Positions 7,988 through 40,854 of a DNA stretch of 64,000 nt are shown here, piece by piece. The notes under the pieces are model-generated. The model saw nothing but the letters and a program-made list of their open reading frames with translations. It was not told the origin of the DNA and made no database searches. Location of the stretch: assembly GCA_023512255.1 (NCBI GenBank), contig JAILZY010000010.1, positions 2,246 to 66,245 of the forward strand, written 5' to 3'. Position numbers and translations under genes: made by a program. Within the stretch, counting starts at the first letter, position 1, and the number at the start of each line of letters is the position of its first letter. The stretch comes from a bacterium (GTDB taxonomy: Bacteria; SZUA-182; DTGQ01).

Positions 7988-7990
7988 AAA

Positions 7991-8139: not shown

Positions 8140-8157
8140 ATATAGTGGAGATTAGAT

Positions 8158-10946: not shown

Positions 10947-11023
10947 AACTTAATCCTTTTTCTGCCGATACAAAATCAGAGTAGAATCCAATATTAACCA
11001 TTAACACTAGGGGTATCTTTTAT

Positions 11024-12268: not shown

Positions 12269-12381
12269 CCGTAATATCCAAGCATCTTCTAATATCCAAG
12301 CAGCCCTACTACCTTGCTCATCGTGAACTTGTCGATAAAAGGACGAATAAGAATCAAAAAGGCAGTTACTTAAGGTTCAAG

Positions 12382-26965: not shown

Positions 26966-27208
26966 CTTTCGATCCCCTCTCTTCCATAAGCACTCTCTCC
27001 CAACCAAGGTTAAATATTGTTTATCACTCGAACCTAACATTAACAAACCACTTTATCACTTTTAAAATCACTTTTAAAATTCTAAAAATTGATCGCTGGT
27101 TAAGTTATCATTATCCCACTCCTTCCCTTAATCCTTATAGAATTATATAGCCGTTTAATATAGCCGTTTATCAATCGCTACCTAAGCTAACGCTTATTTA
27201 AGGCTTAC

Positions 27209-28291
27209 TTATTTAAGATTTGTATCCTTAATGATATAAATCTGATTGACTTCCTGATCAGTCAGGTAAATGGTGTCATCACGGCCAATGAATATTCCAG
27301 TTGGCATCTTGAAATATATTTTGCCCTCTTTTCCATCCAGCCATTTGATTGCACCAATAAATTTTCCATCCGGCCCAAATACCTGGATACACTTCAGTAG
27401 AAGATCGGTTACATAAGCCCGGCCTCGACGGTCGACACCGACTCCTGTCAGCCGAGAGAACTGACCAGCTCTTTCCCCGCTTTCACCTCCAATCTGAAAA
27501 AGCTCAGCTCCATCCGGCTGAAAAACCCGAACCCGGGCGCACATACCTTCAGGAACGAAGATCCGATTCTGATCATCAAAACAGACTATCCCAGGCGTAC
27601 AAAACATACCCTGTTCCTTGCCTTTAAAATAGCGTAAAAATTTGCCATGCAAGTCATAAATCCAGATATGGCCGTTTGAGGCATCACTGACATAAAGCTG
27701 ATTACTCTTTTTATCAATGGCAATACAGCCGGGCGAGGCGTTTTGATATTTGTCATCTGGGGATAGAGCTGATTTAGAGGAAAATTCTTCTACAAACTCA
27801 CCTCGAGGGGTAAAAACCAGGATTTTTTCCCGCTTGACATCACAGATGTATACTTTGTCTTGGCTGTCTATGGCAATGCTGAACGGCTGGAGAAACTGCC
27901 CTGGCCCTTTTCCTTCCTTGCCGAATTTGGATAAGAATTTACCATCACGGCTATAAATCAATACCTCGGAGGGGATATTTTTTAGGACATAGAGATCTCC
28001 TTGGGAATTCTGGACCATATGAATTATAATGCCGCTGCTTTTGCCGCCCACCGCGGCAGATGGTCCGGAATCGCCCATGGTCCCGATCAGCTTAACCGTC
28101 CTGTTTTCAACCTCCTGCTCCACGGTCTGCTCATCGGTGCGGTCGCTTGCTTTTTGTTTAGTCGCTTGCTCGCCGGCTACAGCCTGCTCTTTGGCTTCAG
28201 CCTTGGCCAGCGTAGGCCGTGGAGCAAGCAAAAAGTGGAGCAGCAGACCACTCAGCAGGAAAATCCATAACATGGATGAAGATTTTTTCAT
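27209..28291 (-). CDS. NHL-repeat beta-propeller protein, secreted
   Basis: Signal peptide MKKSSSMLWIFLLSGLLLHFLLAPRPTLA. NHL blades LTGVGVDRRGRAYVTDLLLKCIQVFGPDGKF, GIFIGRDDTIYLTDQEVNQIYII and others. Confidence 0.75.
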   Translation of the reverse strand: MKKSSSMLWIFLLSGLLLHFLLAPRPTLAKAEAKEQAVAGEQATKQKASDRTDEQTVEQEVENRTVKLIGTMGDSGPSAAVGGKSSGIIIHMVQNSQGDLYVLKNIPSEVLIYSRDGKFLSKFGKEGKGPGQFLQPFSIAIDSQDKVYICDVKREKILVFTPRGEFVEEFSSKSALSPDDKYQNASPGCIAIDKKSNQLYVSDASNGHIWIYDLHGKFLRYFKGKEQGMFCTPGIVCFDDQNRIFVPEGMCARVRVFQPDGAELFQIGGESGERAGQFSRLTGVGVDRRGRAYVTDLLLKCIQVFGPDGKFIGAIKWLDGKEGKIYFKMPTGIFIGRDDTIYLTDQEVNQIYIIKDTNLK

Positions 28292-28481
28292 AATTTTTAT
28301 CCCCCTCGAGGTTTTTCCTTTAATCGTAAATCATAAATCATAAATTTCCATTAATCGTAAAGATGGTTTAAGCCGATTTTTAGATTAGAAGCAGAGCGCC
28401 TTTTTGCCCTTGCTGTTTAACCATCACTATTTTTTTACACGTTTCTTTTTACACGAGCTTACACAGCATAACCTACAAAAA

Positions 28482-28497
28482 TGCAAAAGAAGTACCA
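28482..28497 (-). promoter_or_regulatory. Candidate sigma-54 (-24/-12) promoter for the NHL-1/cytochrome-1 module: TGGTAC-ttctt-TTGCa
   Basis: Reverse complement of 28483-28497 gives GG-N10-GC with a TTGCA -12 box, about 190 nt upstream of the NHL-1 start. One deviation from the TGGCAC consensus. Confidence 0.45.
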
Positions 28498-28755
28498 TCC
28501 ATATTTTTAAAGAAGTACCATACATCTTTTTATAGTGTTAAGGCAGATGTCATGTTAAGCCCTAGGAAGCCAATGATCATTTATTTACAAATGATATACT
28601 GTTACATTATAATACGAAAGAAAACCCAATATCAACATCCAGGTTGCGAGGTTGCCGACAAAAAGAAAAGAAAGGGGTTTGTGGCTATTAGACATATATC
28701 GGTCATTTCAACAATAGAATATTACCTGAAAATAGAAATTACCTGGCTGGGACTC

Positions 28756-30816
28756 CTAAAGCATCCCATAATGGCAATTAAAACATAATCCGCTGCCATG
28801 CTCATACACTTGGCCTTGAAAGCTTCCACCAATGGCATTATCAATAATTAAAAGTTTTCCGGCATTTAATCTTCCGCTTTGACTGATACCATCATGCCTA
28901 GTTACGGCTGAATGAACGCTGTGGCAGGACTGACAGGTGATATCTCCCTCCAGGGTATCATTTGATGTTTGCCCGCCAAACCCACCACTGAAGCCTGAGA
29001 TAACATAGCCTTGAAAATTATCGCCAAATTGAACCGATTTTTGCTTCAGAGGCCTGTTGACCGGATGGGAGGATTCGCACTCGGCAGATGCGGGTTTGCT
29101 GGTATGGCAGGCGATGCACAGGGCAGAGCCAGAATAGTCCCGGGTTGCGTTCGGCTCTCGAAGGTAAGCTGTGCGCCGATCAATAAATTTCTCGGAGGAG
29201 CGGATAGGGGGCGAGTCCTGCCGGTGGACATTGTGGCAGCTTCCGCACCAGATTCTCCCTTTCTCGACTCCGTAATCATTCTGACACTTTTTTTCCCAAC
29301 CATCGGAAACAACCTGTTTCCCATCCCCAAAAGGATTAATAATATTGATATTTTTGGAAGGCACTACATTAAACCGATGAGAGAAGTAATGGTCCTCTAC
29401 ATTATCGAGCAGCAGAGCATTTTTTTCATTGTCCGTATCTTTTGCTCCTACGATTTCGGCTCGTGAGTGGCAGCCGTAGCAGGCATCCTCGTAATCACGA
29501 CTATCCTGATCCTGCAATTTGTCAGCCCACTGAAGATTTACTGGTGCAATCCGCATGATCACATCCACCGAAGCAGAGGAATTTTCTTGGTTAGCTCGCT
29601 CATCATCTGTCTGATATAGAGCCGCAGGATCATTCGGTGATTTATGGATAGAGTGGCAGAATAGGCACTCATTTTCATTCTGGGGCGGCCCGATCGTGCG
29701 CCCGACCTGATAATGTCCGCGGCCTGGAGTGGATTCAAGATCACCGACCGCTTTATCAGAATGGCAGGCAGCACAAAAGGCCCCGGGATGAGCCGGATCG
29801 TAGTTGCTGATAATTTGCGGGTTGAGATACTTATCATTAGTGCCCTGATGAGGATCATGGCAGGATTTGCAATACAGCTCTCCCTGAGGGGAGAGTGGGC
29901 CAGATGCGGTCTTCTGATGTCCTTCGACTGTAGCCTCAGCTCCTTTCCCCATCGGGTGGTGCTCATACCGGACCAGGCAATCATCGCCATTCAGCGGAGC
30001 GTTTAGCGCCCCCTCACCCCCCCCTTGAGCTCGATGGCAGCCGTAGCAGCTAGCTGCATAAGAGTCAGCCACAGGATCGGAAAATTCGCTAACATTAGGG
30101 ACTGCTCTGAAGGGGATGCTGCTTTCAGTCTTAATGATCTTTTTCCCTCGATTGGGGGAATAATGCGGAGTATGACAGTCAAAGCAGCCATCTTTGGTTC
30201 CATGCCCCTTGGCCTTACCCTGAACCAGGGGAGCGTGGCATTGGATACAAAATTCATAATGCTTTTGTGAGGTAGTTTTGATTAAACCAGGCACTGACTC
30301 CCGCAGGTAATCGCCCCCCTCAAAGGGATCGGTATGAGGATTATGACAGCTTCCACAATAAAATCCATCTCCTCCCTCCTTAGGCCGCAGGGGAAAGGTT
30401 TCACCCCACTCTTTGCGGGTTACCGCCGGACCATTAATTAGAGCATTGGCTCCCATGGGATGATCATTACCTTCCTCAATGAATATATAATCCCTAGCTC
30501 CGAAAAGATGAGTACCATGACAGGTGCTGCACAGTCTTTTTGTTCCGGTAAACTCACCACTTGCCGCCCTAGCCCACAGAAGGTCATCAGCGGCATGGTG
30601 AGGCAGATGACAGGCTCCGCACGGATCTTCCGGTACACACCAGGCATGAGGCCCATTCAGCGCCCAGGCGAACTGAAAGCCGAAGACGACCAGCAGGAGG
30701 GAAATAATAAGGCCTATTATCCCTTTCGAAATACCTATACCGATTATCCACCGGAGAGCGATTCTCAGAAAACTACTTCGATACATCGAATACTGAAACA
30801 ACTTTTGTCTCCGCAT
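28756..30816 (-). CDS. Multiheme c-type cytochrome (14 CxxCH) with an N-terminal membrane anchor or signal
   Basis: CGACH, CSTCH, CGSCH, CIQCH, CFDCH, CYGCH, CKSCH, CAACH, CLFCH, CYGCH, CGSCH, CIACH, CQSCH, CFNCH. Hydrophobic N-terminus IIGLIISLLLVVFGFQFAWA. Alternative start MYRSS at 30786. The 5' end overlaps the 3' end of NHL-2 by 14-44 nt. Confidence 0.85.
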   Translation of the reverse strand: MRRQKLFQYSMYRSSFLRIALRWIIGIGISKGIIGLIISLLLVVFGFQFAWALNGPHAWCVPEDPCGACHLPHHAADDLLWARAASGEFTGTKRLCSTCHGTHLFGARDYIFIEEGNDHPMGANALINGPAVTRKEWGETFPLRPKEGGDGFYCGSCHNPHTDPFEGGDYLRESVPGLIKTTSQKHYEFCIQCHAPLVQGKAKGHGTKDGCFDCHTPHYSPNRGKKIIKTESSIPFRAVPNVSEFSDPVADSYAASCYGCHRAQGGGEGALNAPLNGDDCLVRYEHHPMGKGAEATVEGHQKTASGPLSPQGELYCKSCHDPHQGTNDKYLNPQIISNYDPAHPGAFCAACHSDKAVGDLESTPGRGHYQVGRTIGPPQNENECLFCHSIHKSPNDPAALYQTDDERANQENSSASVDVIMRIAPVNLQWADKLQDQDSRDYEDACYGCHSRAEIVGAKDTDNEKNALLLDNVEDHYFSHRFNVVPSKNINIINPFGDGKQVVSDGWEKKCQNDYGVEKGRIWCGSCHNVHRQDSPPIRSSEKFIDRRTAYLREPNATRDYSGSALCIACHTSKPASAECESSHPVNRPLKQKSVQFGDNFQGYVISGFSGGFGGQTSNDTLEGDITCQSCHSVHSAVTRHDGISQSGRLNAGKLLIIDNAIGGSFQGQVYEHGSGLCFNCHYGML

Positions 30817-31783
30817 TAACTACATAGATTTTATTGTTTGTCCAGGCCAGACCGAGAGGCTGGCTGAACAGCCTGGGATTGCTCGACTGGCGCATAGAGT
30901 CAAGATATTCCCCCTTCTGGTTGAATACCTGGACCGAATTTGAGATAAAATCAGAAACATAAATCCGATCTCTGGCATCAATAGCCAGGCCATAGGGTCG
31001 AATAAATTCTCCCTCTTTGGTGCCGTTTTTGCCAAAAGCATAGCGAAATTTAAAATCAGGACTAAAAGACTGGACCCTGAAATTACCCGCATCAACGACA
31101 TAAATATTTCCTCGGCTATCGAAAGCAATATGAGCCGGACCGCTCAATCCTCCGTCTCCTCCGCCGGCAGTGCCGAAGGTGGCTTTTAATTCTCCAGAGA
31201 GTGTGTAGACTCCGATCTGGTGATTGCAGGCATCAGAGATATATAGCCGATTATCGAATGGATTGTAAGCGATAAAAGGGGCACAAAGATCGCGGCCTTT
31301 CTCTGGCTGGTGAAGGGGAAATTGCCCTTTAAGTTCGCCATCTGAGCTATAAATCAAAATCTTGTCTGTGGCCAGATCCGATACGTACACCCGATCCTGC
31401 CTGTCAATCGCTATCCCTGACGGCTCGCTCAGGTTTACTCCTTTGCCTTTTCCCTTGCCCTGCTTGGTCGGCTCTTGGCCAAAAGCAAACAGTAGCCGAC
31501 CCGAAGGATCAAATACCCGAATCTCATTGGTCAGCGAGCAGACAACAAAGAGGCGACCTTTGGAATCAAGGGCCAGCGCCGTGGGCTTGCCAGATGCTGG
31601 GCCTTGAAAACCAAGCTGAATCTGCCGCTCAAGCTGATAAAAGCTTTCTTTGCCGGCAGGTTGGCCAGCAGCCAGAGCTGAGCTGCTCAAGAGGAAGAGG
31701 GGAAAAAGCAGCGTCGCCAAGACAGATGCCAGAAAACCTTTTGGATTCAAAATCGGCTGGACAGTCATTATAATAGTCATCAT
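30773..31783 (-). CDS. NHL-repeat beta-propeller protein, secreted
   Basis: Signal peptide; blades GIAIDRQDRVYVSDLATDKILIYSSDGEL, NRLYISDACNHQIGVYTLSGEL, GNIYVVDAGNFRVQSFSPD, DRIYVSDFISNSVQVFNQKGEY, NKIYVVNAETKVVSVFDV. Confidence 0.75.
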   Translation of the reverse strand: MMTIIMTVQPILNPKGFLASVLATLLFPLFLLSSSALAAGQPAGKESFYQLERQIQLGFQGPASGKPTALALDSKGRLFVVCSLTNEIRVFDPSGRLLFAFGQEPTKQGKGKGKGVNLSEPSGIAIDRQDRVYVSDLATDKILIYSSDGELKGQFPLHQPEKGRDLCAPFIAYNPFDNRLYISDACNHQIGVYTLSGELKATFGTAGGGDGGLSGPAHIAFDSRGNIYVVDAGNFRVQSFSPDFKFRYAFGKNGTKEGEFIRPYGLAIDARDRIYVSDFISNSVQVFNQKGEYLDSMRQSSNPRLFSQPLGLAWTNNKIYVVNAETKVVSVFDVSK

Positions 31784-31937
31784 AATATAAAATATTTTGA
31801 TAATATAAAATATTCGATAAATATTCGATAAAATATTGCCCCCGCCACTGAGGGTTAAAATTCAAGCTTTCTGCTTGCTGAGGTCATAATTTTTCATCTT
31901 GAAAAACATCAATTATCTTCATTTTGAAGCTATAGTA

Positions 31938-31953
31938 AGCAAAAGATGTGCCA
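31938..31953 (-). promoter_or_regulatory. Candidate sigma-54 (-24/-12) promoter for the NHL-2/cytochrome-2 module: TGGCAC-atctt-TTGCt
   Basis: Reverse complement of 31939-31953 is a perfect TGGCAC-N5-TTGC match, about 145 nt upstream of the NHL-2 start codon and immediately downstream of the sigma-54 activator gene. Confidence 0.5.
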
Positions 31954-32173: not shown

Positions 32174-33727
32174 TTAGCTTGGCTCGTCAAGGCCATATCG
32201 TTTGATTTTCTTGTGTAAACCCTGCCTGGTAATCCCAAGCAAAGAGGCTGCTTTGTTCTTATTGCCCTGGGCTTCTTGAAGCGCTTTTCGGATAAGTCTA
32301 ATTTCCAAAGCCTTAACCTGCTCAGGGAGTGAATAATCAACGGCATCTTTCTCATGATCTTGCAGACTCTTGCTGAAATTTTGCAGCTCCCGTGAGCATT
32401 TGTCAATGGTAATTCGCTCCCCCTCAGGAGTTAGCGCAACCAGATGTTCTACCTCCCGCAGCAATTGGCGAACATTGCCCGGCCATGAATACTCCTCAAA
32501 CAGCCGCAAGACTTCAGGCGCAAAGCCAGCTACCCTTTTTTTGAATCTACGGCTTACTCGATCCAGAAAGGCTAAGGCCATAGTTACAATATCCTCCCGC
32601 CGCTCCCTGAGAGGCGGAATGTGGATCTCGACTGAAAACAGACGGAAGAAAAGATCCTCCCTGAAACGCCCCAAGGCCACCTCCTGGCGCAGGTCCTTGT
32701 TGGTTGAGCTGATGATCCGCAGATTATAGCGCATTACCTTGTTGCTTCCCAGCCGACAGCCTTCCCCCTCCTGAATGGCCCGCAAGAACTTAGGCTGAAT
32801 AGCCAGAGGCATATCAGCTACCTCATCCAGAAACAGTGTTCCGCCGTCAGCCTCCTCAAATCGACCCTTGCGGCTGGTAACCGCACCGGTGAACGCCCCT
32901 TTTTCATAGCCAAAGAATTCGCTTTCCATAAGATTTTCGAGAATCGAGGCACAGTTTACAGCCACAAAGGGTTTGTCGCGGCGGTCACTGCCTTCATGGA
33001 TCATTCGAGCAATAAGCTCCTTGCCGGTCCCGTGCTCGCCGTGGATGAAGACATTGACCGGAGTTTTGCTGATCATCCGCACCTCATCCATGATATTTCT
33101 CATAATCGGGCTTTCGACAATAAAGGGTATATCCCGAAAATAATTTCTTTCGAACCACTCGACCTCGCAGTTTAACTGGCTAGAGATTTGCAGAATCTCT
33201 CGGCTTAAAAGGATGCCCTCGATAGAGGTTGCAAGGAAAGAGGCGATTTCCTGCAATTGCTCCACATCTTCTGCGCTAAATCGCCCATCTCCCTTCTTGT
33301 TTAGTACCTCGATGGCTCCGATTACACCACGGCCAGTCAGACTTCTGATCGGAGCACAGATTAGACTGTGGGTAACAAAGCCGGTCTTGGCATCAATTTC
33401 AGTATGGAAACCGTGTCGCTTGTCCAGGTCATGCTCTACAATGCATTGATCGGTAGAGATAACCTTGCCGACAACACTTTCATCTTTGGGAGGCTCAATC
33501 TTCATTCCTTCTAGACCAGTGCCGAACATCGACCAGATTGTCCCCTTTTGTGCATCAGCCACAAAAACAGTGCAGCGTTCGGCATCCATAATTTTGGGCA
33601 GAATGGCTACGTAAAATTTCAGCAGGGCCTCATAATCGCCGACTGTCCAGGATTGGGTAACCTGCTCCAGACGAAATCTAAGGTTGGCAAGTCGCTGATG
33701 AATCATTTCAGGTTCATTGGCAGCCAC
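32174..33727 (-). CDS. Sigma-54-dependent transcriptional activator (bacterial enhancer-binding protein) with an N-terminal GAF sensor domain and a C-terminal Fis-type HTH
   Basis: GAF region ([17 protein letters not shown]..., ...[24 protein letters not shown]). AAA+ sigma-54 interaction domain ([25 protein letters not shown] motif, ...LFFRL..). [24 protein letters not shown]. No REC domain. Confidence 0.85.
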
Positions 33728-34143: not shown

Positions 34144-34160
34144 TGGCATGTGGTTTGCAT
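34144..34160 (+). promoter_or_regulatory. Candidate sigma-54 (-24/-12) promoter facing the giant gene: TGGCAT-gtggt-TTGCAT
   Basis: GG-N10-GC spacing with a TTGCA -12 box. Divergent from the sigma-54 activator gene. About 500 nt upstream of the giant CDS and about 20 nt upstream of a small ORF. Confidence 0.45.
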
Positions 34161-34190: not shown

Positions 34191-34385
34191 ATGGCTGTAA
34201 TTGCTGTAGTTCAAAATGCACTCTCATCACAGCGGATCAAAGAAGGAGGATTTCACATCATGGCAAGCTCATTAATTAATATGGCAGGTATTATTTCCGC
34301 AGAGCAGGTTATTTTCTTGGTAATGATGATCAGCCTTTCCTTTATCCTAGTTAAACGAAGAAAATTCCCCGTACTGATCAAGTAG
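34191..34385 (+). CDS. Possible small (64-aa) membrane protein immediately downstream of the sigma-54 promoter
   Basis: ATG at 34191 with a GGGAG RBS. C-terminal hydrophobic helix IISAEQVIFLVMMISLSFILV followed by KRRK. No homology recognised; the call is speculative. Confidence 0.25.
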   Translation: MAVIAVVQNALSSQRIKEGGFHIMASSLINMAGIISAEQVIFLVMMISLSFILVKRRKFPVLIK

Positions 34386-34674: not shown

Positions 34675-37600
34675 GTGAGGTCAAAGAGCAAAGAATTTTT
34701 TTCAGATCAGAAAGGAGTGCTAAGAATCATGTCTAAGGTAAAAGACAACTGGTGGGCCAAGTTAGTAAGCTCATCCTGTCTTGTGCTCTTTACCATAATA
34801 GCCCTTAGTGTTGGGTGTATGGGGATTTGGGTTAGCAAGACAGAGGCAGGAGGGGTAAACCTTTCGCTGAGTGGACAGGCGATTTATCCTCAGCCCGTGG
34901 ATCAGGAAGTGCCGGAAATTTACGGGACCAAGGTCGTCTGGATGCAGCAGGGGAATGATTATTATTACAAAGTATTCCTTGGCGATCTTGAGACCGGCAC
35001 CAGCAGGCAGCTTGGGAGCAGCCCGGCTGCGGAAAAGTATCCGGCCATCTGGGAGAATAAGGTTATCTGGATGGATTATCGAAGCATCATGGATGATCCA
35101 ACAGTAGAAAACAAATATGCATACATTTTCAAATACTATGATATGTATGGATATGACCTGGAGAAAAATCAGGAATTTCCCATTTGTACCAATCCAGAAT
35201 GGCAGGGATATGGAGATATCCAGAAGGATCGGGTTGTGTATGCTGATATGCGTACCGGCAGCCCGGATATCTTCCTCTATGACCTGAGAAGCAGTCAGGA
35301 ATACGCCATATGTATTCATCCCGCCTGGCAGGGAAATCCGGTCATTTATGATAATTATGTCATCTGGATGGACGAGCGCTCAGGCAATTATGATATCTAC
35401 GGCCTTGATCTAGCGACCGGTAAGGAATTTCCCATTTGCACCGCGGCTGATAACCAGGCTTATCCAGCTATCAGCGGCACAAAAGTGGTCTGGCAAGACA
35501 AAAGAAGTGGCAACGACGATATCTACCTCTATGATCTGGCCACAAAACAGGAAATCGCTATCTGTACCCATCCAGGAAAGCAGCAGGTGCCTGATATTTG
35601 CGGCAATATCATTGTCTGGCAGGATGACCGTAATGGGAATTGGGACATCTATGGTTATGATCTGACTACCTATCAGGAATTTCAGATTACTAACCAGAGC
35701 GGCGATGAGACCTTCCCTGCCATATCTGGTGATCGGATCGTCTGGGTGGATTCAAGGAGCGGCCACAAAAATATTTATGCGGCTACTTTGCCGTCTGGCT
35801 TTGCTCCACAAGCCAATAATCAGGTCAGAAATCGGGAGTCAATCACTGCTGCTAGCTCACTGGGTGACTCTATCACGGCCATGTCATTTGCTGCTAGCTC
35901 ACTGGCTAGCTCTATCGCCACCACGATTGCTCCGAATATCGAGATCTTAATACCCGAATTAATACCTGAAATCACCATACCCGCGATCACCTCTCCCATC
36001 ATCGAAGTGCCAAAAACCGGCCCCTCAATTATAGGCTACGAAAATAGCGGTTGTAAAAAAGAGATTACCTCTACCACCATCCGCGCTCCTGAGGAAGAGA
36101 AATTTACCTATAAGTATCAAGACAATATCCTTTATCTTTTTCATGAGAACGCCTCTTACAATTGCTGTATTGAGGAAATCGCCATCACTATGGAGGTGGT
36201 AGGAAATATCATCAATATTTATGAAGATGAAAGGCTTGAGGGAGGCGGCTGTCGATGTCTCTGCACCTATGATATAACCACTAAGATCGGCTGTCTTGAG
36301 CCTGGCACCTATGAGGTGAAATTCTTCAACAAGCAAACCGGCAAATTGCTCGGCGTGATCAAAGAGGTGGTTATTCCCCCGATTCCCTGTCTTCTTTCTG
36401 CCGCCGCACCGGTACAAAAATGCTGTCCACTTCCCTGCACCGATCCCATAAACCGCTGCTGTCCGTATGCCTCTGCTGTGCCAGAGCAAAGATGTGTGGT
36501 CTGTCCGGTGCCTTGGTGGCCATGTCCATGCAGCTATTTCGATGATATGGAGCAAGATACTTGGACATTCAGCCGAGGGATCAGCTCTTCTTCGTCCATC
36601 TCTACGCCGCTGCCACCTCCCCCAATTCAAGAGATTGATTATTCAACTGCCCAATACGTTTCACCGAAAAGATCAATCTGGGCCTATGTAGCCAGCTATC
36701 TTGAGACCGCGACCGATGCCAGTATTACTGGAGCAGGATACCGCACCCTTGGGGAAGGAGCAGAGCTTGCTACCGCTTCCAGCACCTCAGCATCCCTAGC
36801 GGCAGCAGCCAATGCCAGGGTAAGTGCTTCTCGGTCGTTTGAGCTTTGCGGCTGTGAGAATCTCAAGCTGAAGCTTTCTTACCAGATCCGCTACTCCATA
36901 AGCAAAATTAATCAATATCTCTATCGCCGCGTCGCGGTTGAGGTGATGGCTTATGATGCTGCTGGCAATCAGATGGGCAAGCGCACCTATGTCCTGTTTA
37001 GGAATCCTATCCAGGTATTGAGTCAGGAAGATATTGATATTGTGCTCCCTGCTCAGTCTGCATGGCAGACCCTGGCAAGATCCCTCCAAAAAGATATACC
37101 GATCAAATGGTGTGAGGCGAGAAAACTTCAGGTAATTTTAAAAGCCGAAGGATATTTCCCTGCTGGTCAGGGTGACTTTGTAGAAACATTCTGGGATGAT
37201 CTGGCCATTGAGGGGCAAAACTGTAATATCATCCTGCCGTGCTGTCCGCTGGCTCAGGCTGAGGTTGGGGCGGCAGATGCCCTGTGGTGTCGGCCCTGTC
37301 CTGTGGCTACGACGACAGCAGCCAGCCAGGCTCTGTGGTGCTGGCCCTGCCCGGTGGCTTCTGTTGATGCGGCAAGTGCAGATGCTCTGTGGTGTCGGCC
37401 ATGTCCCTATGAGATTCATATGCCAGATGGGACGATTAGGCGTTGCTGTCCTGTGGCTACGACGACAGCAGCCAACCAGGCTCTGTGGTGCTGGCCCTGC
37501 CCGATAGCGACTGGTGTTGAGGTCAATGTTCAGAGCTGGTGTTGTCCGCTGGCTAAGGCCGAGGTAGATACCCAGGTTTTGTGGTGTCGGCCCTGTCCTG

Positions 37601-40600
37601 TGGCCACTCAGCTTGATAATAACCTGATTCGCTGGTGCTGTCCGCTGGCCAAGGCTGAGGTGGATAGTCAGTCTTTGTGGTGCTGGCCCTGTCCGTATGT
37701 AGTGGAAAAGGATGGTCAGCTTACCCGCTGGTGTTGTCCTGTGGCTCAAAATGTAGACACGCAACTTTGGTGCAGGCCATGTCCTTATCCCAAGGCTACT
37801 GATAAGGAGCTTAATATATACTGCTGTCCTGTGGCTACGGCGACGGCGGCTGGCCAGGCAATGTGGTGTCGGCCTTGTCCTTTGGCTTCAGATGTAGCAG
37901 ATGAGGCACTCAAGCTTTGGTGCTGTCCGCTGGCTCAGGCTGAGGTTGGGGCGGCAGATGCCCTGTGGTGTCGGCCATGCCCTGTGGCTACGACGACGGC
38001 AGCCGGCCAGGCTCTGTGGTGCTGGCCCTGCCCGGTGGCTTCTGTTGATGCGGCAAGCGCAGATGCTCTGTGGTGTCGGCCATGTCCGGTTCCGATAACT
38101 CCGCTGCCTGACAATTGCCTAATTGGAACGGTTAAAGAAATTCAACATCATGTCTCGGTCGGACGATCTGATCTAAAGGTAGTGGATGAATCGGGAAATA
38201 TTAGGGAGATATCTGTACCGCTTACCCAGGCCGAAAATCTCAAGGTTGGCGATAAGGTTAAAGTTTGCATTGAGACGGATAAAAATGGCGAGATTATTTC
38301 AATCACCATTGAAAAGTACGATCCTAACGCACAGGTAGTGCCTCCAGCTCAGATTTGCTGTCCGCTGGCTCAGGCTGAGGTTGGGGCGGCAGATGCTCTG
38401 TGGTGTCGGCCATGCCCGATAGCTTCTGTTGATGCGGCGAGCGCAGATGCCCTGTGGTGTCGGCCATGCCCTGTGGCTACGACGACGGCAGCCGGCCAGG
38501 CTCTGTGGTGCTGGCCTTGCCCGATAGCTTCTGTTGATGCGGCGAGTGCAGATGCCCTGTGGTGTCGGCCATGTCCCTATGAGATTCATATGCCAGATGG
38601 GACGATTAGGCGCTGCTGCCCTGTGGCTACGGCGACGGCAGCCAACCAGGCTCTGTGGTGCCGGCCTTGTCCTGTGGCTTATGTTGATGCGGCGAGCGCA
38701 GATGCCCTGTGGTGTCGGCCCTGTCCTGTGGCTACGACGACGGCAGATGGCCAGGCCCTGTGGTGTCGGCCCTGTCCTGTGGCCACTCAGCTTGATAATA
38801 ACCTGATTCGCTGGTGCTGTCCGCTGGCCAAGGCTGAGGTGGATAGTCAGTCTTTGTGGTGCTGGCCCTGTCCGTATGTAGTGGAAAAGGATGGTCAGCT
38901 TACCCGCTGGTGTTGTCCTGTGGCTCAAAATGTAGACACGCAACTTTGGTGCAGGCCATGTCCTTATCCCAAGGCTACTGATAAGGAGCTTAATATATAC
39001 TGCTGTCCTGTGGCTACGGCGACGGCGGCTGGCCAGGCAATGTGGTGTCGGCCTTGTCCTTTGGCTTCAGATGTAGCAGATGAGGCACTCAAGCTTTGGT
39101 GCTGTCCGCTGGCTCAGGCTGAGGTTGGGGCGGCAGATGCTCTGTGGTGTCGGCCCTGTCCTGTGGCTACGACGACGGCAGCCGGCCAGGCTCTGTGGTG
39201 CTGGCCCTGCCCGATAGCTTCTGTTGATGCGGCAAGTACAGATGCCCTGTGGTGTCCGCCCTGCCCGGTGGCTACGACTACGGCAGCCGGCCAGGCTCTG
39301 TGGTGTCGGCCCTGCCCGGTGGCTTCTGTTGATGCGGCGAGCGCAGATGCCCTGTGGTGTCGGCCCTGCCCTGTGGCTACGACGACGGCAGCCGGCCAGG
39401 CTCTGTGGTGCCAGCCAGGAGTAGTTACCGAATGTTTAGAGGAAACCTCAGGAGCCTTGGACATTGAAGGCGCTCAGGCAGATGTGGGTGATGAGGTCAA
39501 GATCAAGATTCGGATTCAGAATGCGCCCGGTGTGGTATCTTCCTTCGGCTTTGAGGTTATCTACAGGTCGGATATTTTAGAGTATCAAGGCTTTGAGCGC
39601 GGAAATCTCGTACTTTCCTTCCCCATGATTGATGTTAGCCCAAGCGGCCCAGACAGGCTCAAGGTGGGAGGATTATCAGCGAATCCTATACCGCAGGGAG
39701 CAAGTGGTTCGGTTGTGGTGCTAAAATTCAAGGTCATAGGTGGTGTGAAAGATGAATGTTATCCCTTGAGTCTGGAAAATCTGGTAGATGATCTAGTCAA
39801 ATTCTCCAAAACTGGCGGCTGTCTATGCATCAAGGATACTGTACCACCTCAGATTACCTGCCCGGGAGATAGGGTTATCGGCCAGATAAATAGCGATGGT
39901 ACGCCTGCTGACGATCCTGAGGTAGTTGCCTTCCTCGCTGAGGCCAAAGCATGGGATGCAGTTGATGGTGAGGTTGCGGTTTCAGCCACCTTCCAATTTG
40001 ATCAGACCAGTGGAGTTACCAGCACTAGTGAGCCTGTCCCTGGAGCTGAAATAATTATAGATGCAGACGATCAAGCCAAGATATTTTCTGGCAATCCTCT
40101 TATCCTTCCTCCTGGCCAGACCACAGTAATCTTTACCGCTAGAGACAAAGCTGGCAACAGCTCTTCCTGCACAGCTACGATCACCATTCAGCCAATGGTA
40201 TGCGAGGAGGATGAGTCCGGGCAGCTCGATATTAAAGGCACGGAAGGCAGGATAGGAGAGGAAGTGAAGATTCCGATTCGGATTCAGAATGCGCCCGGTG
40301 CCATCTCTGCTCTTGGCTTTGAGGTAAGCTACAAACCCTCTGTCCTTGAGTATGTTGGGTTTGAGCGAGGAAGCCTGGCGGCCTCTTTCTCTGTCTTCGA
40401 TGTCAACCCAATTGCCTCTGGCAGGCTCATTGTAGGTGGATACTCCACCCGAGGTATCCCGCAGGGAGCAAGCGGCGATCTGCTTATCCTGAAGTTTAAG
40501 GTTAAGGATGGTATGGAAGGTGGATGCTATCCCTTGAAGCTGGATGGGCTGACGGATGATGTGGTTAACTTTACAGCCAGCCCGGGTTGCTTCTGTATCA

Positions 40601-40854
40601 AGAGCTGCAACGGCGATCAAAATGGAGATGGAGTTATTACTCCTGCTGATGCGCTCATAGTGTTCAAGTGTTACCTTGGATCAGGACCTTGCGGCGATTG
40701 CGCTGATGTTGATGGCAACGGCAGTGTTACTCCGGCTGATGCCCTGTGTCTGTTCAAGAAATACCTGGGTCAGCCTTCTTGTCTGGATAACCTTATTAAG
40801 CTTAATGCTCAAAATAAGGGAACCTTTGCCGTAAGTGGAAAATCAGACGCCTAA
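34675..40854 (+). CDS. Giant secreted multidomain protein (2059 aa): signal/anchor, PD40 (TolB-like) 6-blade beta-propeller, Cys-rich linker domain, two arrays of about 26 'WC[RW]PCP' 20-residue cysteine repeats, cohesin, HYR, cohesin, type-I dockerin
   Basis: Hydrophobic N-terminus WWAKLVSSSCLVLFTIIALSVGCMGIW. PD40 blades ...YDMYGYDL, PDIFLYDL, YDIYGLDL, DDIYLYDL, WDIYGYDL, KNIYAATL. Repeats ALWCRPCPVATTTAAGQALWCWPCPVASVDAASAD... Cohesin-like DIEGAQADVGDEVKIKIRIQNAPGVVSSFGFEVIYRSDILEYQGFERG and DIKGTEGRIGEEVKIPIRIQNAPGAISALGFEVSYKPSVLEYVGFERG. HYR-like PPQITCPGDRV...TARDKAGNSSSCTATITI. Dockerin DQNGDGVITPADALIVFK / DVDGNGSVTPADALCLFK. Confidence 0.8.
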   Translation: MRSKSKEFFSDQKGVLRIMSKVKDNWWAKLVSSSCLVLFTIIALSVGCMGIWVSKTEAGGVNLSLSGQAIYPQPVDQEVPEIYGTKVVWMQQGNDYYYKVFLGDLETGTSRQLGSSPAAEKYPAIWENKVIWMDYRSIMDDPTVENKYAYIFKYYDMYGYDLEKNQEFPICTNPEWQGYGDIQKDRVVYADMRTGSPDIFLYDLRSSQEYAICIHPAWQGNPVIYDNYVIWMDERSGNYDIYGLDLATGKEFPICTAADNQAYPAISGTKVVWQDKRSGNDDIYLYDLATKQEIAICTHPGKQQVPDICGNIIVWQDDRNGNWDIYGYDLTTYQEFQITNQSGDETFPAISGDRIVWVDSRSGHKNIYAATLPSGFAPQANNQVRNRESITAASSLGDSITAMSFAASSLASSIATTIAPNIEILIPELIPEITIPAITSPIIEVPKTGPSIIGYENSGCKKEITSTTIRAPEEEKFTYKYQDNILYLFHENASYNCCIEEIAITMEVVGNIINIYEDERLEGGGCRCLCTYDITTKIGCLEPGTYEVKFFNKQTGKLLGVIKEVVIPPIPCLLSAAAPVQKCCPLPCTDPINRCCPYASAVPEQRCVVCPVPWWPCPCSYFDDMEQDTWTFSRGISSSSSISTPLPPPPIQEIDYSTAQYVSPKRSIWAYVASYLETATDASITGAGYRTLGEGAELATASSTSASLAAAANARVSASRSFELCGCENLKLKLSYQIRYSISKINQYLYRRVAVEVMAYDAAGNQMGKRTYVLFRNPIQVLSQEDIDIVLPAQSAWQTLARSLQKDIPIKWCEARKLQVILKAEGYFPAGQGDFVETFWDDLAIEGQNCNIILPCCPLAQAEVGAADALWCRPCPVATTTAASQALWCWPCPVASVDAASADALWCRPCPYEIHMPDGTIRRCCPVATTTAANQALWCWPCPIATGVEVNVQSWCCPLAKAEVDTQVLWCRPCPVATQLDNNLIRWCCPLAKAEVDSQSLWCWPCPYVVEKDGQLTRWCCPVAQNVDTQLWCRPCPYPKATDKELNIYCCPVATATAAGQAMWCRPCPLASDVADEALKLWCCPLAQAEVGAADALWCRPCPVATTTAAGQALWCWPCPVASVDAASADALWCRPCPVPITPLPDNCLIGTVKEIQHHVSVGRSDLKVVDESGNIREISVPLTQAENLKVGDKVKVCIETDKNGEIISITIEKYDPNAQVVPPAQICCPLAQAEVGAADALWCRPCPIASVDAASADALWCRPCPVATTTAAGQALWCWPCPIASVDAASADALWCRPCPYEIHMPDGTIRRCCPVATATAANQALWCRPCPVAYVDAASADALWCRPCPVATTTADGQALWCRPCPVATQLDNNLIRWCCPLAKAEVDSQSLWCWPCPYVVEKDGQLTRWCCPVAQNVDTQLWCRPCPYPKATDKELNIYCCPVATATAAGQAMWCRPCPLASDVADEALKLWCCPLAQAEVGAADALWCRPCPVATTTAAGQALWCWPCPIASVDAASTDALWCPPCPVATTTAAGQALWCRPCPVASVDAASADALWCRPCPVATTTAAGQALWCQPGVVTECLEETSGALDIEGAQADVGDEVKIKIRIQNAPGVVSSFGFEVIYRSDILEYQGFERGNLVLSFPMIDVSPSGPDRLKVGGLSANPIPQGASGSVVVLKFKVIGGVKDECYPLSLENLVDDLVKFSKTGGCLCIKDTVPPQITCPGDRVIGQINSDGTPADDPEVVAFLAEAKAWDAVDGEVAVSATFQFDQTSGVTSTSEPVPGAEIIIDADDQAKIFSGNPLILPPGQTTVIFTARDKAGNSSSCTATITIQPMVCEEDESGQLDIKGTEGRIGEEVKIPIRIQNAPGAISALGFEVSYKPSVLEYVGFERGSLAASFSVFDVNPIASGRLIVGGYSTRGIPQGASGDLLILKFKVKDGMEGGCYPLKLDGLTDDVVNFTASPGCFCIKSCNGDQNGDGVITPADALIVFKCYLGSGPCGDCADVDGNGSVTPADALCLFKKYLGQPSCLDNLIKLNAQNKGTFAVSGKSDA
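37240..39415 (+). repeat. Coding tandem-repeat arrays (60-bp units encoding WC[RW]PCP) in two blocks (37240-38095 and 38356-39415), including a 100%-identical 361-bp duplication (37600-37960 = 38779-39139)
   Basis: Direct comparison of the sequence lines shows identical text at an offset of about 1180 bp. The shadow ORFs on the opposite strand are artefacts of this repeat. Confidence 0.9.
39440..40790 (+). other. C-terminal cohesin, HYR, cohesin and dockerin module of the giant protein (approximate domain span)
   Basis: The domain-signature sequences are listed under the giant CDS. Dockerin calcium-binding repeats lie at about 40606-40790. Confidence 0.6.

What the first reader, a model, noticed from the sequence alone, without database searches (positions are those of the whole stretch)
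34675..40854. Novel 20-residue 'WC[RW]PCP' cysteine repeat (about 26 copies plus about 10 'CCP[LV]A' units) inside a giant PD40-propeller / cohesin / HYR / cohesin / dockerin protein
Residues from about 850 to 1590 form two arrays of a strict 20-aa unit, for example ALWCRPCPVATTTAAGQ-ALWCWPCPVASVDAASAD. Each unit carries a CxPC pair, is often preceded by CCP, and contains no His, so it is not a heme motif. I do not recognise this as any described repeat family. The protein is secreted, begins with a TolB-like propeller, and ends with two cohesins and a dockerin. It could therefore self-assemble or recruit partners. The regular CxxC spacing suggests either a disulfide-stapled solenoid or a metal-binding array that might act as a mineral or metal interface next to the cytochromes.
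Basis: seen in the sequence. Interest (0 to 1): 0.9.

Follow-up and report, generated by a model that had tools for sequence, protein, structure and literature searches.

The report
Rare cysteine-pair repeat stalk protein
A giant surface protein of an uncultured, probably hot-spring bacterium carries long arrays of a previously undescribed repeat built on regularly spaced cysteine pairs, most likely a stiff variable-length stalk that holds out docking modules; the exact copy number is uncertain and a metal-binding role is not excluded.

Summary
The repeat is real. The gene (true start ATG 34729, 2041 aa, NCBI "hypothetical protein") has 26 exact WCxPCP motifs (0.001 expected) and 13 in-array CCP motifs, with no heme motif. 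The period is not 20 aa. The family unit is 32 aa with four invariant Cys (LWC[RK]PCP-loop-[WY]CCP-loop). The window also has derived 17/18-aa units.

The propeller, two cohesins, HYR and dockerin are confirmed. Pfam, NCBIfam and PDB do not match the repeat. An exhaustive HMM search of 1.84 billion proteins and DNA scans of 185,579 genomes and 241 million metagenome records found about a dozen relatives, all from unclassified MAGs. AlphaFold2 could not fold the repeat (pLDDT 30-51).

The copy number is unsafe. The two arrays share a 382-nt identical block, and a 97%-identical independent assembly has an intact gene with only 16 copies.

Best reading: a cross-linked, length-variable stalk ("periscope"-like) of a membrane-anchored adhesin/scaffoldin. 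It has a conserved sigma-54-type promoter and sits beside a sigma-54 activator and two NHL/14-heme cytochrome operons. A thiolate metal/mineral-binding array remains a live rival. It is a new sequence family within a familiar kind of protein.

The parts
34144..34159 (+). Sigma-54-type promoter candidate (TGGCATGTGGTTTGCA) about 570 nt upstream of the start codon
   Evidence: One mismatch to TGGCAC-N5-TTGCW. The same element sits at the equivalent place in orthologous loci L001 (6202-6217) and L008 (5724-5739).
34260..34385 (+). Conserved small ORF (41 aa, MASSLINMAGIISAEQVIFLVMMISLSFILVKRRKFPVLIK; hydrophobic, single-helix-like) with its own GGAGG ribosome-binding site, between the promoter and the giant gene
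   Evidence: ORF list. The RBS, ATG and the first codons are conserved in the 3-species alignment A4. Genes of 63 aa and 100 aa are called at the same place in L001 and L008.
34729..40854 (+).
   Evidence: The exact 2041-aa product is NCBI MCL6582659.1, 'hypothetical protein [bacterium]'. The start M[SA]K[IV]K[ND]xWW is conserved.
34750..34848 (+). N-terminal hydrophobic segment (signal anchor or uncleaved signal peptide)
   Evidence: The Kyte-Doolittle 19-residue mean peaks at 2.15 over residues about 11-35. The segment is conserved in all full-length relatives. There is no conserved lipobox Cys.
34852..35793 (+). Seven-bladed beta-propeller
   Evidence: TIGR04275 beta_prop_Msarc, 7 repeats, 2.5e-81. 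TolB models fall far below their cutoffs and PD40 is marginal.
36019..36381 (+). Small Cys-containing domain with no family match
   Evidence: No Pfam hit at E<=10. It is conserved in P0002, P0003, P0005, L001 and L010.
36382..36528 (+). Short degenerate CCP / C-x-x-C stretch (KCCPLPCTDPINRCCPYAS...WWPCPC). In L010 it is expanded to 9 copies of a 12-aa RCCPVSSTDPSL unit.
36529..37224 (+). Conserved domain of about 230 aa with no family match (CSYFDDMEQDTW ... FWDDLAIEGQNC). It occurs twice in the JBLIRO/JBLIRS proteins.
   Evidence: No Pfam, PDB or protein-database hit.
37231..38118 (+). Array 1: 11 WCxPCP + 6 CCP (short units, six 30-34-aa canonical units, then short units)
38104..38331 (+). 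Small beta-barrel (OB-like) domain separating the arrays
   Evidence: AlphaFold2 pLDDT is about 90 for this segment only. The best Foldseek PDB matches are Mop/TOBE and OB folds, E about 6e-3, not significant. It is conserved in L001, L003, L007 and P0005 and absent in L010.
38356..39426 (+). Array 2: 15 WCxPCP + 6 CCP. Its core is a near copy of array 1.
   Evidence: 92% identity over 829 nt to array 1. The 382-nt block 38759-39140 is identical to 37580-37961 (repeat finder D2). In the 97%-identical assembly L013 it is replaced by only 3 short units.
39448..39837 (+). Cohesin 1
   Evidence: Pfam PF00963, two stretches, 6.4e-21 for the protein. Boundaries were set by sequence landmarks.
39838..40194 (+). 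HYR-like Ig-type domain (partial match)
   Evidence: PF02494, 7.8e-5, 23.4 bits against a cutoff of 21.7; only profile positions 54-81 match.
40216..40608 (+). Cohesin 2
   Evidence: Best Pfam stretch. Weak PDB sequence matches to CipA and ScaC cohesins, E 1.4e-4 to 2.7e-3.
40609..40788 (+). Type I dockerin with seven Cys
   Evidence: PF00404, 1.1e-6, 29.2 bits. PDB dockerins 2y3n_B and 2ccl_B, E 1e-3 to 9e-3.
32174..33727 (-). Divergently transcribed GAF + sigma-54 activator + HTH_8 regulator; probable regulator of the giant gene and of the cytochrome operons
   Evidence: Pfam. The same gene occupies the same position in L001, L008 and L010.
24695..31953 (-). Two tandem operons, each an NHL beta-propeller plus a 14-heme MtrC/OmcA-like cytochrome. 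Each is preceded by a sigma-54-type promoter: 31938-31953 (perfect match) and 28482-28497 (one mismatch).
   Evidence: 14 CxxCH in each cytochrome. Pfam. Promoter matches, conserved in L001 (3665-3680) and L008 (2611-2626).

Best explanation
The WCxPCP/CCP arrays are a genuine protein-coding tandem repeat. They form the long extracytoplasmic stalk of a membrane-anchored multidomain surface protein.

The family's building block is a 32-residue module with four invariant cysteines arranged as two pairs, each pair followed by proline: L-W-C-[R/K]-P-C-P, then loop A, then [W/Y]-C-C-P, then loop B.
- Loop A is 12 aa with a hairpin-like pattern, Y-A-x-x-V-D-x-G-I-I-x-W.
- Loop B is 9-11 aa with the pattern V-A-x-x-x-V-A-G-x-x.

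Across all relatives the one constant is a Cys pair every 10-14 residues. The loops themselves range from hairpin-like to Pro/Ser/Thr-rich.

Proposed mechanism (inferred): neighbouring Cys pairs are tied to each other, by disulfide bonds in the extracytoplasmic space or by a shared metal ion. Every loop is therefore closed, and the array becomes a chain of small cross-linked loops. This would be a stiff rod resistant to heat and proteases, with Trp and Arg/Lys packing next to the cysteines.

The rod would hold the C-terminal interaction modules away from the membrane-proximal propeller. Those modules are two cohesins and a dockerin here, and MopE-type modules in the paralogous subfamily. The length of the rod changes quickly through recombination between near-identical DNA copies, as in 'Periscope' surface proteins.

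The gene has a conserved sigma-54-type promoter. It sits back to back with a GAF/sigma-54 activator and two sigma-54-promoted NHL/14-heme-cytochrome operons. It is therefore probably switched on together with the extracellular electron-transfer proteins, as an attachment or scaffolding component.

Shown: the anatomy, conservation, rarity, copy-number difference, domain content and promoter conservation.
Inferred: the cross-links, rigidity, cell-surface exposure, co-regulation and adhesive/scaffolding role.
For: The repeat is coding and under selection at the protein level:
- Seven positions (C3 P5 C6 P7 C20 C21 P22) are invariant in 21 units from 4 proteins. Cys and Pro are 100% conserved in 61 distinct 32-aa units.
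- The motif's Cys and Pro codons vary synonymously.
- Individual units keep their own identity in the same order across five species, giving a super-repeat of about 300 aa (alignment A2).

Pattern within the unit:
- Hydrophobic or aromatic residues recur at positions 1, 2, 8, 12, 16, 17, 19, 23 and 28.
- Turn-like D-[DGN]-[GNK] and A-G occur at positions 13-15 and 29-30.
- The low-confidence AlphaFold2 model places a hairpin exactly at the D-G turn.

Stalk-like placement: the arrays lie between an N-terminal hydrophobic anchor plus propeller and C-terminal cohesin/dockerin modules. They are interrupted by small globular domains.

Variable length:
- 90% nucleotide identity across the 105-nt period.
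- A 382-nt identical block shared by the two arrays.
- 26 versus 16 copies in 97%-identical assemblies.
- Very different array lengths and lineage-specific unit types in orthologues, with at least 63 CxPCP in JBLIRO.
- These are the features used to define Periscope Proteins (PMC8201768).

Other domains of the same protein also carry conserved Cys at their edges (GGCLCIKD, PGCFCIKSC, seven Cys in the dockerin), as expected for a protein whose compartment makes disulfides.

A close relative comes from a Yellowstone metagenome (L015 = Ga0078972; PMC8986864), a setting where cross-linking for stability makes sense.

Regulatory link: sigma-54-type promoters are conserved at equivalent positions in three loci, in front of both the giant gene and the NHL/cytochrome operon.
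Against: - No structure could be obtained. The repeat scores pLDDT about 30 (9-row alignment) and 51 (29 rows), so neither a rod nor closed loops are shown.
- No disulfide-forming machinery was seen in the window.
- Relatives come from anoxic, sulfidic sites (Zodletone), where extracellular disulfides may not persist.
- If the organism has an outer membrane, an N-terminal anchor would leave the protein in the periplasm rather than on the surface.
- The derived 17/18-aa units and the Pro/Ser/Thr-rich variants lack the hairpin pattern. They look flexible rather than stiff.
- The copy-number difference could be an assembly effect rather than biology.
- Linkage to the cytochromes is seen only in the cohesin/dockerin subfamily of fairly close relatives. 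The MopE subfamily locus L004 has an MFS transporter upstream instead, so the shared gene order may reflect relatedness only.
Confidence: 0.42

Rival explanations
1. Thiolate metal- or mineral-binding array. Each 32-aa unit (or each pair of 17/18-aa units) brings CxPC and CC (or CxPC and CxPC) together around loop A to form a four-cysteine site for a soft metal or an Fe-S/Ni-S centre. The protein would then be a surface polymer of dozens of metal sites that binds metal sulfide or oxide minerals, sequesters metals, or, at the extreme, relays electrons next to the cytochromes.
For: - There are four invariant Cys per 32-aa unit. The derived short units alternate in two types with a 35-aa (105-nt) period, which keeps four Cys per period.
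- Cys-Pro follows the pattern seen in ferredoxin and rubredoxin-type sites (own knowledge).
- The asymmetry between a hairpin-like loop A and a linker-like loop B fits one site per unit.
- Paralogues end in PF11617 'putative metal-binding motif' (MopE-like) modules.
- The gene sits beside two 14-heme extracellular-type cytochromes and shares sigma-54-type promoters with them.
- Source habitats are anoxic and sulfidic, where thiols stay reduced.
Against: - No His, Met or Asp ligand pattern is present, and there is no match to any metal-binding family.
- The arrays contain 6-7% Trp and many aliphatic residues, unlike metallothioneins.
- AlphaFold2 did not form a confident mini-domain here. In my experience it usually pre-forms Cys4 sites, so this counts weakly against the idea.
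- Variants with Pro/Ser/Thr-rich loops and irregular orders of CxPCP and CCP (L010, MAG299 array 1) do not keep a fixed 4-Cys register.
- No metal transporter, chaperone or Fe-S assembly gene is linked.
Confidence: 0.25
2. Intermolecular cross-linking matrix protein. Exposed Cys pairs on an extended, Pro-punctuated chain form disulfides between molecules, as in keratin-associated proteins or cnidarian minicollagens. After cohesin-dockerin self-association, this would lock the proteins into a covalent sheath or biofilm matrix.
For: - The same polypeptide has two cohesins and one dockerin, which allows head-to-tail self-assembly.
- The only strictly conserved feature is the regularly spaced Cys pair followed by Pro; loop sequences vary freely.
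- The structure predictions show low confidence and extended character.
- CC-x-P motifs recall keratin-associated proteins (own knowledge).
Against: - Unit-specific sequence conservation across species is more than a simple cross-linker needs.
- The N-terminal anchor argues for a tethered rather than a released matrix protein.
- The MopE subfamily lacks cohesin and dockerin.
Confidence: 0.13
3. Redox-active dithiol/disulfide relay. The W-C-x-P-C motif is the thioredoxin active-site motif, so the array could shuttle reducing equivalents, or carry persulfide/polysulfide sulfur, along the protein.
For: The motif matches thioredoxin's WCGPC at the level of W-C-x-P-C in all 26 copies (the motif comparison is from own knowledge). 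The gene lies next to an electron-transfer gene cluster.
Against: - There is no thioredoxin fold. Units are 17-34 aa and no thioredoxin-family hit appears at E<=10.
- W is not conserved in some arrays, which have [YFL]C[KT]PCP.
- Half of the Cys pairs are vicinal CC, which is a poor redox couple.
- Two-electron thiol chemistry is a slow way to conduct electrons.
Confidence: 0.05
4. The array in this window is partly an assembly construct. Array 2's core may be a second traversal of array 1, or of a co-occurring strain's array, through shared k-mers. The true gene would then resemble L013/L015, with one long array and a 3-unit second array.
For: - A 382-nt identical block is shared by the two arrays, and 56-62-nt entry segments are 98% identical.
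- Window array 2 has the same unit order as L013's array 1, including the rare WCPPCP unit.
- L013 and L015, from two metagenomes, are 100% identical over their 1404-nt overlap, which spans the first array, and L013 shows only a 3-unit second array.
Against: - Outside the identical block the two arrays differ (53 mismatches and 4 gaps in 829 nt). Both are equally distant from L013 (16 mismatches each in 383 nt).
- More distant orthologues (P0001/MAG299) do have a long second array of canonical units after the OB-like domain. L013 could equally be the collapsed assembly.
- Either way the repeat family, the reading frame and the motif are untouched.
Confidence: 0.3

Closest known systems
Periscope Proteins (SasG, Rib, Sgo_0707, CdrA; Whelan et al. 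2021, PMC8201768)
   Same: A surface-anchored protein whose long middle part is a tandem array of units that are nearly identical at the DNA level. Repeat number differs between close strains, and a functional module sits at the end far from the anchor.
   Different: Periscope stalks are made of recognisable folded domains of 70-130 aa (G5/E, Rib, SHIRT, Ig-like). Here the unit is 17-34 aa, holds four Cys, has no family match and has no predicted fold. The anchor is N-terminal and the functional end is C-terminal. The length variation rests on metagenome contigs, not on long reads.
Non-cellulosomal cohesin/dockerin proteins, e.g. the scaffoldin-like proteins of ANME archaea (Chadwick et al. 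2022, PMC9012536; Peer et al. 2009, cited there)
   Same: Cohesin and dockerin modules sit on one polypeptide in an anaerobe that also has large extracellular multiheme cytochromes, with no cellulases nearby. The proposed roles are surface organisation and cell-cell or cell-matrix contact.
   Different: Those proteins are not reported to carry this Cys repeat. This protein is bacterial: sigma-54 regulators lie beside the gene and NCBI labels the record 'bacterium'. Binding partners are unknown.
CXXC-rich surface proteins of Giardia (VSPs and related high-cysteine proteins; listing)
   Same: These are extracellular coats with about 12% Cys dominated by CXXC motifs, and a structural or metal-binding role has long been debated.
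   Different: They are eukaryotic and not strictly periodic. They have no CC-P partner motif and no sequence relation.
Short Cys-braced repeats: insect beta-helical antifreeze proteins (12-15-aa coils with a Cys ladder), BAD-1 Trp/Cys 24-aa repeats, thrombospondin type-1 repeats, keratin-associated CC-x-P repeats (own knowledge; BAD-1 abstract seen)
   Same: Very short tandem units whose fold depends on regularly placed cysteines, with Trp/Arg packing in BAD-1 and TSR.
   Different: There is no sequence match and no structural match. The alternating motif C-x-P-C-P / C-C-P is not found in any of them.
Thioredoxin active site (W-C-G-P-C)
   Same: The five-residue pattern W-C-x-P-C is identical.
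   Different: There is no thioredoxin fold around it. The motif sits in units of 17-34 aa, and W is dispensable in some relatives.

Membership tests
Periscope Proteins (variable-length surface stalk proteins) | Tandem repeats highly similar at the DNA level | tested here: met
   The 105-nt period shows 90% matches. The arrays are 92% identical over 829 nt and include a 382-nt identical block.
Periscope Proteins (variable-length surface stalk proteins) | Repeat number varies between closely related strains | tested here: inconclusive
   26 versus 16 WCxPCP between the window and L013, which is 97% identical in 12.6 kb of flank. L015 is 100% identical to L013 over their 1404-nt overlap. All are metagenome assemblies of unknown read type, so repeat collapse or expansion cannot be excluded.
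Periscope Proteins (variable-length surface stalk proteins) | Repeats are folded units that form an elongated rod | tested here: inconclusive
   AlphaFold2 gives pLDDT about 30 and 51 and Foldseek finds no match. The sequence pattern suggests hairpins.
Periscope Proteins (variable-length surface stalk proteins) | Cell-surface location with the functional domain distal to the anchor | not testable with these tools
   An N-terminal hydrophobic segment and C-terminal cohesin/dockerin fit this feature. Envelope type and localisation are unknown.
c-type (multi)heme cytochromes | CxxCH (or CxxCK) heme-attachment motif | tested here: not met
   None of the 28 CxxC motifs is followed by His. The residue after CxPC is always Pro, and the protein has only 8 His.
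Thioredoxin-fold oxidoreductases | WCxPC motif embedded in a thioredoxin fold of about 100 aa | tested here: not met
   The motif is present 26 times, but units are 17-34 aa and no thioredoxin-family hit appears even at E<=10.
Metallothioneins | Small, Cys-rich (C-C, C-x-C, C-x-x-C) polypeptides essentially without aromatic residues | tested here: not met
   The arrays have 12-13% Cys but also 6-7% Trp and conserved Tyr/Leu/Val/Ile positions, inside a 2041-aa protein. There is no family hit. Metal binding itself was not tested.
Cohesin-dockerin (cellulosome-type) systems | Cohesin and dockerin modules present | tested here: met
   PF00963 at 75.5 bits (two copies) and PF00404 at 29.2 bits, both above their cutoffs. 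Weak PDB cohesin and dockerin matches.
Cohesin-dockerin (cellulosome-type) systems | Association with carbohydrate-active enzymes or carbohydrate-binding modules | tested here: not met
   No such domain appears in the protein or in the 20 flanking proteins scanned.
Described Cys-rich repeat families in Pfam and NCBIfam (e.g. PF11617 MopE-type motif) | Significant profile match over the repeat | tested here: not met
   Nothing reaches its cutoff for the arrays, whether scanned as the whole protein, one array or three units. PF11617 is found only in the C-termini of paralogues L003 and L006, outside the repeat.
Disulfide-braced beta-solenoids (antifreeze-type) | Regular beta-helical coil with a stacked Cys ladder | tested here: inconclusive
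   The half-unit of about 16 aa would fit a coil. However, the models are of low confidence and give no PDB match (best Foldseek E = 5.2).

The most novel reading that the evidence does not exclude
The arrays are a protein-templated chain of four-cysteine metal or iron-sulfur (or nickel-sulfur) centres, one per unit of about 32 residues and dozens per molecule (more than 60 in the JBLIRO homologue). The chain would be displayed outside the cytoplasm and co-induced with MtrC/OmcA-like 14-heme cytochromes. It would act as a non-heme conduit or a mineral-gripping electrode interface for extracellular electron transfer.
Probability: 0.1. Interest if true: 0.9.

Novelty: new variant of a known kind. 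Interest (0 to 1): 0.5.

Why it matters
If the proposed structure holds, this is a new way to build an extracellular rod: a 32-residue, four-cysteine module far smaller than the Ig-like or G5-type domains of known stalks. Such a module could serve as a compact, heat-stable spacer in protein engineering.

It also marks out a very narrow, uncultured bacterial lineage. About a dozen sequences were found among roughly 15 billion proteins, from hot-spring, sulfidic-spring and other environmental metagenomes. In the cohesin/dockerin subfamily this lineage couples a giant cohesin/dockerin protein to a sigma-54-controlled multiheme cytochrome cluster. That gives a concrete candidate for how such cells attach to, or organise, their electron-transfer surface.

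If instead the cysteines hold metals, the protein would be an unprecedented periodic thiolate-metal polymer at the cell surface.

The finding is also a caution. The repeat count in MAG-derived giant genes can differ by 40% between near-identical assemblies.

Tried and rejected
- Heme-binding: rejected, no CxxCH.
- Known repeat or domain families: nothing above cutoff. I ran Pfam and NCBIfam on the whole protein, Pfam at E<=10 on one array, on three units and on the three unassigned domains, a PDB profile search on the repeat and a PDB sequence search on aa 476-852.
- Structure prediction: both AlphaFold2 jobs failed on the repeat. Their Foldseek searches gave only a non-significant OB/Mop-like match for the inter-array domain and nothing for the repeat.
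- Post-translational modification substrate (RiPP-like, radical-SAM thioether): no maturase-type gene among the 20 flanking proteins scanned.
- Taxonomy: a GlgB search gave only 'bacterium' for close hits (81-98% identity). Hits at about 75% came from mixed phyla (KSB1, Thermodesulfobacteriota, Nitrospirota, Brocadiales), so the phylum is unresolved.
- The Zodletone paper found through 'Zod_Metabat' describes other bins, not bin 896.
- A word-indexed protein search with the 'DDME-FWDDL' domain returned nothing. That index also missed P0005, so its negatives are weak.
- The representative of the window protein's 90% cluster is a spurious 38-aa peptide from a eukaryote-like contig.
- Chance hits of the DNA pattern: L002 (out-of-frame, high-GC 'Chryseobacterium' contig), L011, L014 and L018.
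- The weak HMM hits P0007-P0010 are unrelated repeats: RCC1-like 'RCCPVAVCGG' and eukaryotic low-complexity sequence.
- Rfam on the whole window: no RNA family.
- Long reverse-strand ORFs inside the arrays (37138..37764, 38299..38943, 39114..39464) are shadows of the GC-rich coding repeat.
- Cable-bacteria nickel-fibre literature: none of the listed papers contains the term 'cysteine-rich'; I did not read them further.

Full report
**1. What is in the sequence**

The + strand carries one uninterrupted ORF, 34675..40854. The product read from ATG 34729 (2041 aa) is exactly NCBI MCL6582659.1, 'MAG: hypothetical protein K6U11_03390 [bacterium]', on a 68.7-kb contig. The start M-S-K-V-K-D-N-W-W is conserved in orthologues.

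- The protein holds 26 exact WC.PCP motifs, 15 CCP (13 inside the arrays), 125 Cys and 8 His. None of its 28 CxxC motifs is followed by His.
- From its own composition one expects 0.0014 WCxPCP. The maximum in 20,000 shuffles was 1.
- The spacing is not 20 aa. Units are 17 or 18 aa (WCxPCP only) or 30-34 aa (WCxPCP followed by CCP).
- The arrays are 12-13% Cys, 11% Pro, 6-7% Trp and 17-20% Ala, and slightly acidic.

**2. Domain architecture**

- A seven-bladed propeller. The best model is TIGR04275 'beta_prop_Msarc', 2.5e-81. TolB models fall far below their cutoffs.
- Two cohesins (PF00963, 6.4e-21).
- A partial HYR domain (23.4 bits against a cutoff of 21.7).
- A type I dockerin (29.2 bits).

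PDB sequence matches to cellulosomal cohesins and dockerins are weak but consistent. The N-terminus has a 25-residue hydrophobic segment with a Kyte-Doolittle peak of 2.15, and no conserved lipobox.

Three further conserved modules have no family match:
- A small Cys-containing domain (36019-36381).
- A domain of about 230 aa bounded by ...YFDDMEQDTW... and ...FWDDLAIEGQNC (36529-37224).
- A domain of about 75 aa between the two arrays. AlphaFold2 models it confidently (pLDDT about 90) as a small beta-barrel. Its best PDB matches are Mop/TOBE and OB folds, which are not significant (E about 6e-3).

**3. The repeat family**

A word-indexed search of 5.8 billion protein clusters found three fragments. 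An exhaustive hmmsearch with a profile of the double unit, run against 1.84 billion representative proteins, found five true members and four unrelated weak hits.

A degenerate DNA pattern (WCxPCP..CCP..CxPCP) found four MAGs among 185,579 species genomes, all titled only 'bacterium'. It also found six real contigs among 241 million metagenome records. Other matches were chance hits. In total there are about a dozen sequences.

Across them the canonical unit is 32 aa (58 of 103 units). Its consensus is L-W-C-[RK]-P-C-P-[YLIV]-A-x-x-[VML]-[DE]-[DGN]-[GNK]-[ILV]-[IV]-x-[WYF]-C-C-P-[VLI]-A-x-x-x-[VI]-A-[GDSN]-x-x. The Cys and Pro positions are 100% conserved in 61 distinct units.

Individual units keep their own sequence and order across five species. 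For example...PCPYEIHMPDGTIRRCCPVA... is almost identical in the Zodletone MAG. The arrays are therefore super-repeats of about 300 aa, not low-complexity filler.

The window's 17/18-aa units are a lineage-specific derivative. The WCxPCP head is fused directly to the tail that normally follows CCP. Two types alternate with a 105-nt period at 90% identity.

Other lineages have their own variants:
- [YFL]C[KT]PCP units without Trp.
- Nine copies of a 12-aa RCCPVSSTDPSL unit and a 42-aa triple unit.

The one constant is a Cys pair followed by Pro every 10-14 residues.

Synonymous variation in the Cys and Pro codons of the motif and frame conservation in every assembly show selection on the protein.

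**4. Reliability of the count**

- Arrays 1 and 2 are 92% identical over 829 nt and share a 382-nt identical block, 37580-37961 = 38759-39140.
- Contig L013 (Ga0123519) is 97% identical to the window over 12.6 kb downstream. It carries the gene intact and in frame, but with 16 WCxPCP. Its first array has the unit order of the window's second array, including the rare WCPPCP unit. Its second array has only three short units.
- L015 (Ga0078972, a Yellowstone metagenome according to PMC8986864) is 100% identical to L013 over their 1404-nt overlap.
- Both window copies of the U4-U7 block differ from L013 by the same 16 mismatches.
- More distant orthologues do have a long second array.

Either strains differ, or one of the assemblies mis-traversed the repeat. 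Long reads are needed. The family, motif and frame are not in doubt.

**5. Structure**

Two AlphaFold2 jobs were run.
- The first used array 1 plus the OB-like domain with a 9-row alignment. It gave pLDDT of about 30 for the repeat.
- The second used three canonical units with a 29-row alignment built from sliding windows. It gave pLDDT 51, with short strands and a hairpin at the D-G turn.

Foldseek found nothing for the repeat. The solenoid idea therefore remains untested.

**6. Context**

The gene lies back to back with a GAF/sigma-54 activator (32174..33727, minus strand). Beyond that are two tandem operons, each an NHL propeller plus a 14-heme MtrC/OmcA-like cytochrome.

Sigma-54-type promoters sit in the right orientation in all three intergenic regions:
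- 34144-34159 (+), one mismatch.
- 31938-31953 (-), perfect match.
- 28482-28497 (-), one mismatch.

The window-wide count of such matches at up to 2 mismatches is not above chance (27 against 33 expected). However, the element before the giant gene and the one before the activator-proximal NHL/cytochrome operon recur at equivalent positions in L001 and L008. The same gene order is seen in L001, L008 and L010.

A conserved 41-aa hydrophobic ORF with its own ribosome-binding site lies between the promoter and the giant gene.

The longer paralogous subfamily differs. JBLIRO has at least 63 CxPCP and 66 CCP, and about 3,600 aa if loci L007 and L003 abut. In this subfamily (JBLIRO and JAFGSM) the cohesin/dockerin end is replaced by PF11617 MopE-type modules, and its JBLIRS member has an MFS transporter upstream. 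The cytochrome link may therefore be confined to one subfamily.

No maturase, Dsb-type or metal-handling gene is linked. Rfam finds nothing in the window.

**7. Interpretation**

I rank the explanations as follows.

Cross-linked, variable-length stalk (0.42). This reading is favoured by four observations:
- The arrays lie between a membrane anchor and terminal interaction modules.
- Small globular domains interrupt the arrays.
- The copies are nearly identical at the DNA level.
- Array length is labile between assemblies and species.

These features match the 'Periscope Protein' concept (PMC8201768). The conserved hydrophobic and turn pattern, together with Cys at the edges of the other domains, suggests small cross-linked loops.

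Thiolate metal or mineral-binding array (0.25). This is the main rival. There are four Cys per period, and the derived units keep that number.

Intermolecular cross-linking matrix protein (0.13) and thioredoxin-like redox relay (0.05) are weaker.

Independently of function, there is about a 0.3 chance that the window's second array is partly an assembly construct.

**8. Novelty and score**

The repeat is an undescribed sequence family, annotated only as 'hypothetical', and extremely rare. It sits within a familiar class: giant repetitive surface proteins and non-cellulosomal cohesin/dockerin proteins of anaerobes (PMC9012536).

I rate it a new variant of a known kind, with interest 0.5. The metal-wire reading has a probability of about 0.1 and would be of high interest if true.

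Noticed in passing
window 34260-34385 (+); L001 about 6357-6548; L008 about 5820-6122: A conserved small ORF lies between the sigma-54-type promoter and the giant gene in three species. In the window it encodes 41 aa (MASSLINMAGIISAEQVIFLVMMISLSFILVKRRKFPVLIK), is hydrophobic and single-helix-like, and has its own GGAGG ribosome-binding site. Its function is unknown; it could be a co-transcribed membrane peptide.
   Followed up: partly
window 24695-31953 (-): Two tandem copies of an 'NHL beta-propeller + 14-heme MtrC/OmcA-like cytochrome' operon. Each is preceded by a sigma-54-type promoter (31938-31953, perfect TGGCAC-N5-TTGC; 28482-28497, one mismatch). They lie downstream of a GAF/sigma-54 activator. 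A 1119-aa Reg_prop + Big_5 protein (21022..24381) follows.
   Followed up: partly
window 37580-37961 and 38759-39140: A 382-nt perfectly identical direct repeat inside the gene, 1179 nt apart, flanked by diverged sequence. It reflects either very recent gene conversion or an assembly effect.
   Followed up: yes
L007 1818-8000 and L003 1-4629 (both JBLIRO010000010.1); L004 (JBLIRS); L006 (JAFGSM, Zodletone): A paralogous subfamily in which the arrays start directly after the propeller. In JBLIRO and JBLIRS the 'DDME-FWDDL' domain occurs twice. In JBLIRO and JAFGSM the C-terminus carries PF11617 MopE-type 'putative metal-binding' modules instead of cohesin/dockerin; in L006 a GGISGISGIGYPLGG low-complexity tail follows. 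The junction of L007 and L003 (...CCPVPSQPV | GTDYMWCYPCP...) suggests one ORF of about 3,600 aa.
   Followed up: partly
L010 (Ga0315268_10005860) 7468-13131: This orthologue has other lineage-specific expansions: nine copies of a 12-aa RCCPVSSTDPSL unit and four copies of a 42-aa CKPCPVTTASPYLFCKPCPITDIDPKGLCCPYSTADPASY unit. It has no OB-like domain between arrays. This shows how quickly the arrays are remodelled.
   Followed up: partly
window 34852-35793: The propeller's best model is TIGR04275 'beta_prop_Msarc' (2.5e-81), a repeat whose model name (beta_prop_Msarc) points to Methanosarcina, here in a bacterium. Precomputed Pfam for relatives lists PF26549 Tricorn_N only faintly.
   Followed up: no
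window 42402-45536 (+): A 1044-aa fusion of an N-terminal sulfatase domain with a long TPR array and an internal highly charged KD/RG-rich insert. It lies two genes downstream of the giant gene, after MoaE and a response regulator.
   Followed up: no
protein collection, cluster of MCL6582659.1: The 90% cluster containing the window's protein is represented by an unrelated 38-aa peptide from a 261-kb eukaryote-like contig. As a result, the giant protein is invisible to searches that return cluster representatives. The word-indexed search also missed the full-length orthologue P0005.
   Followed up: yes
window 37138-37764, 38299-38943, 39114-39464 (-): Long reverse-strand ORFs (116-214 aa, Arg/Pro/Gly-rich) lie inside the arrays. 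They are by-products of the GC-rich repeat (GC 0.52-0.56 against about 0.46 in the neighbouring windows) and not genes.
   Followed up: yes
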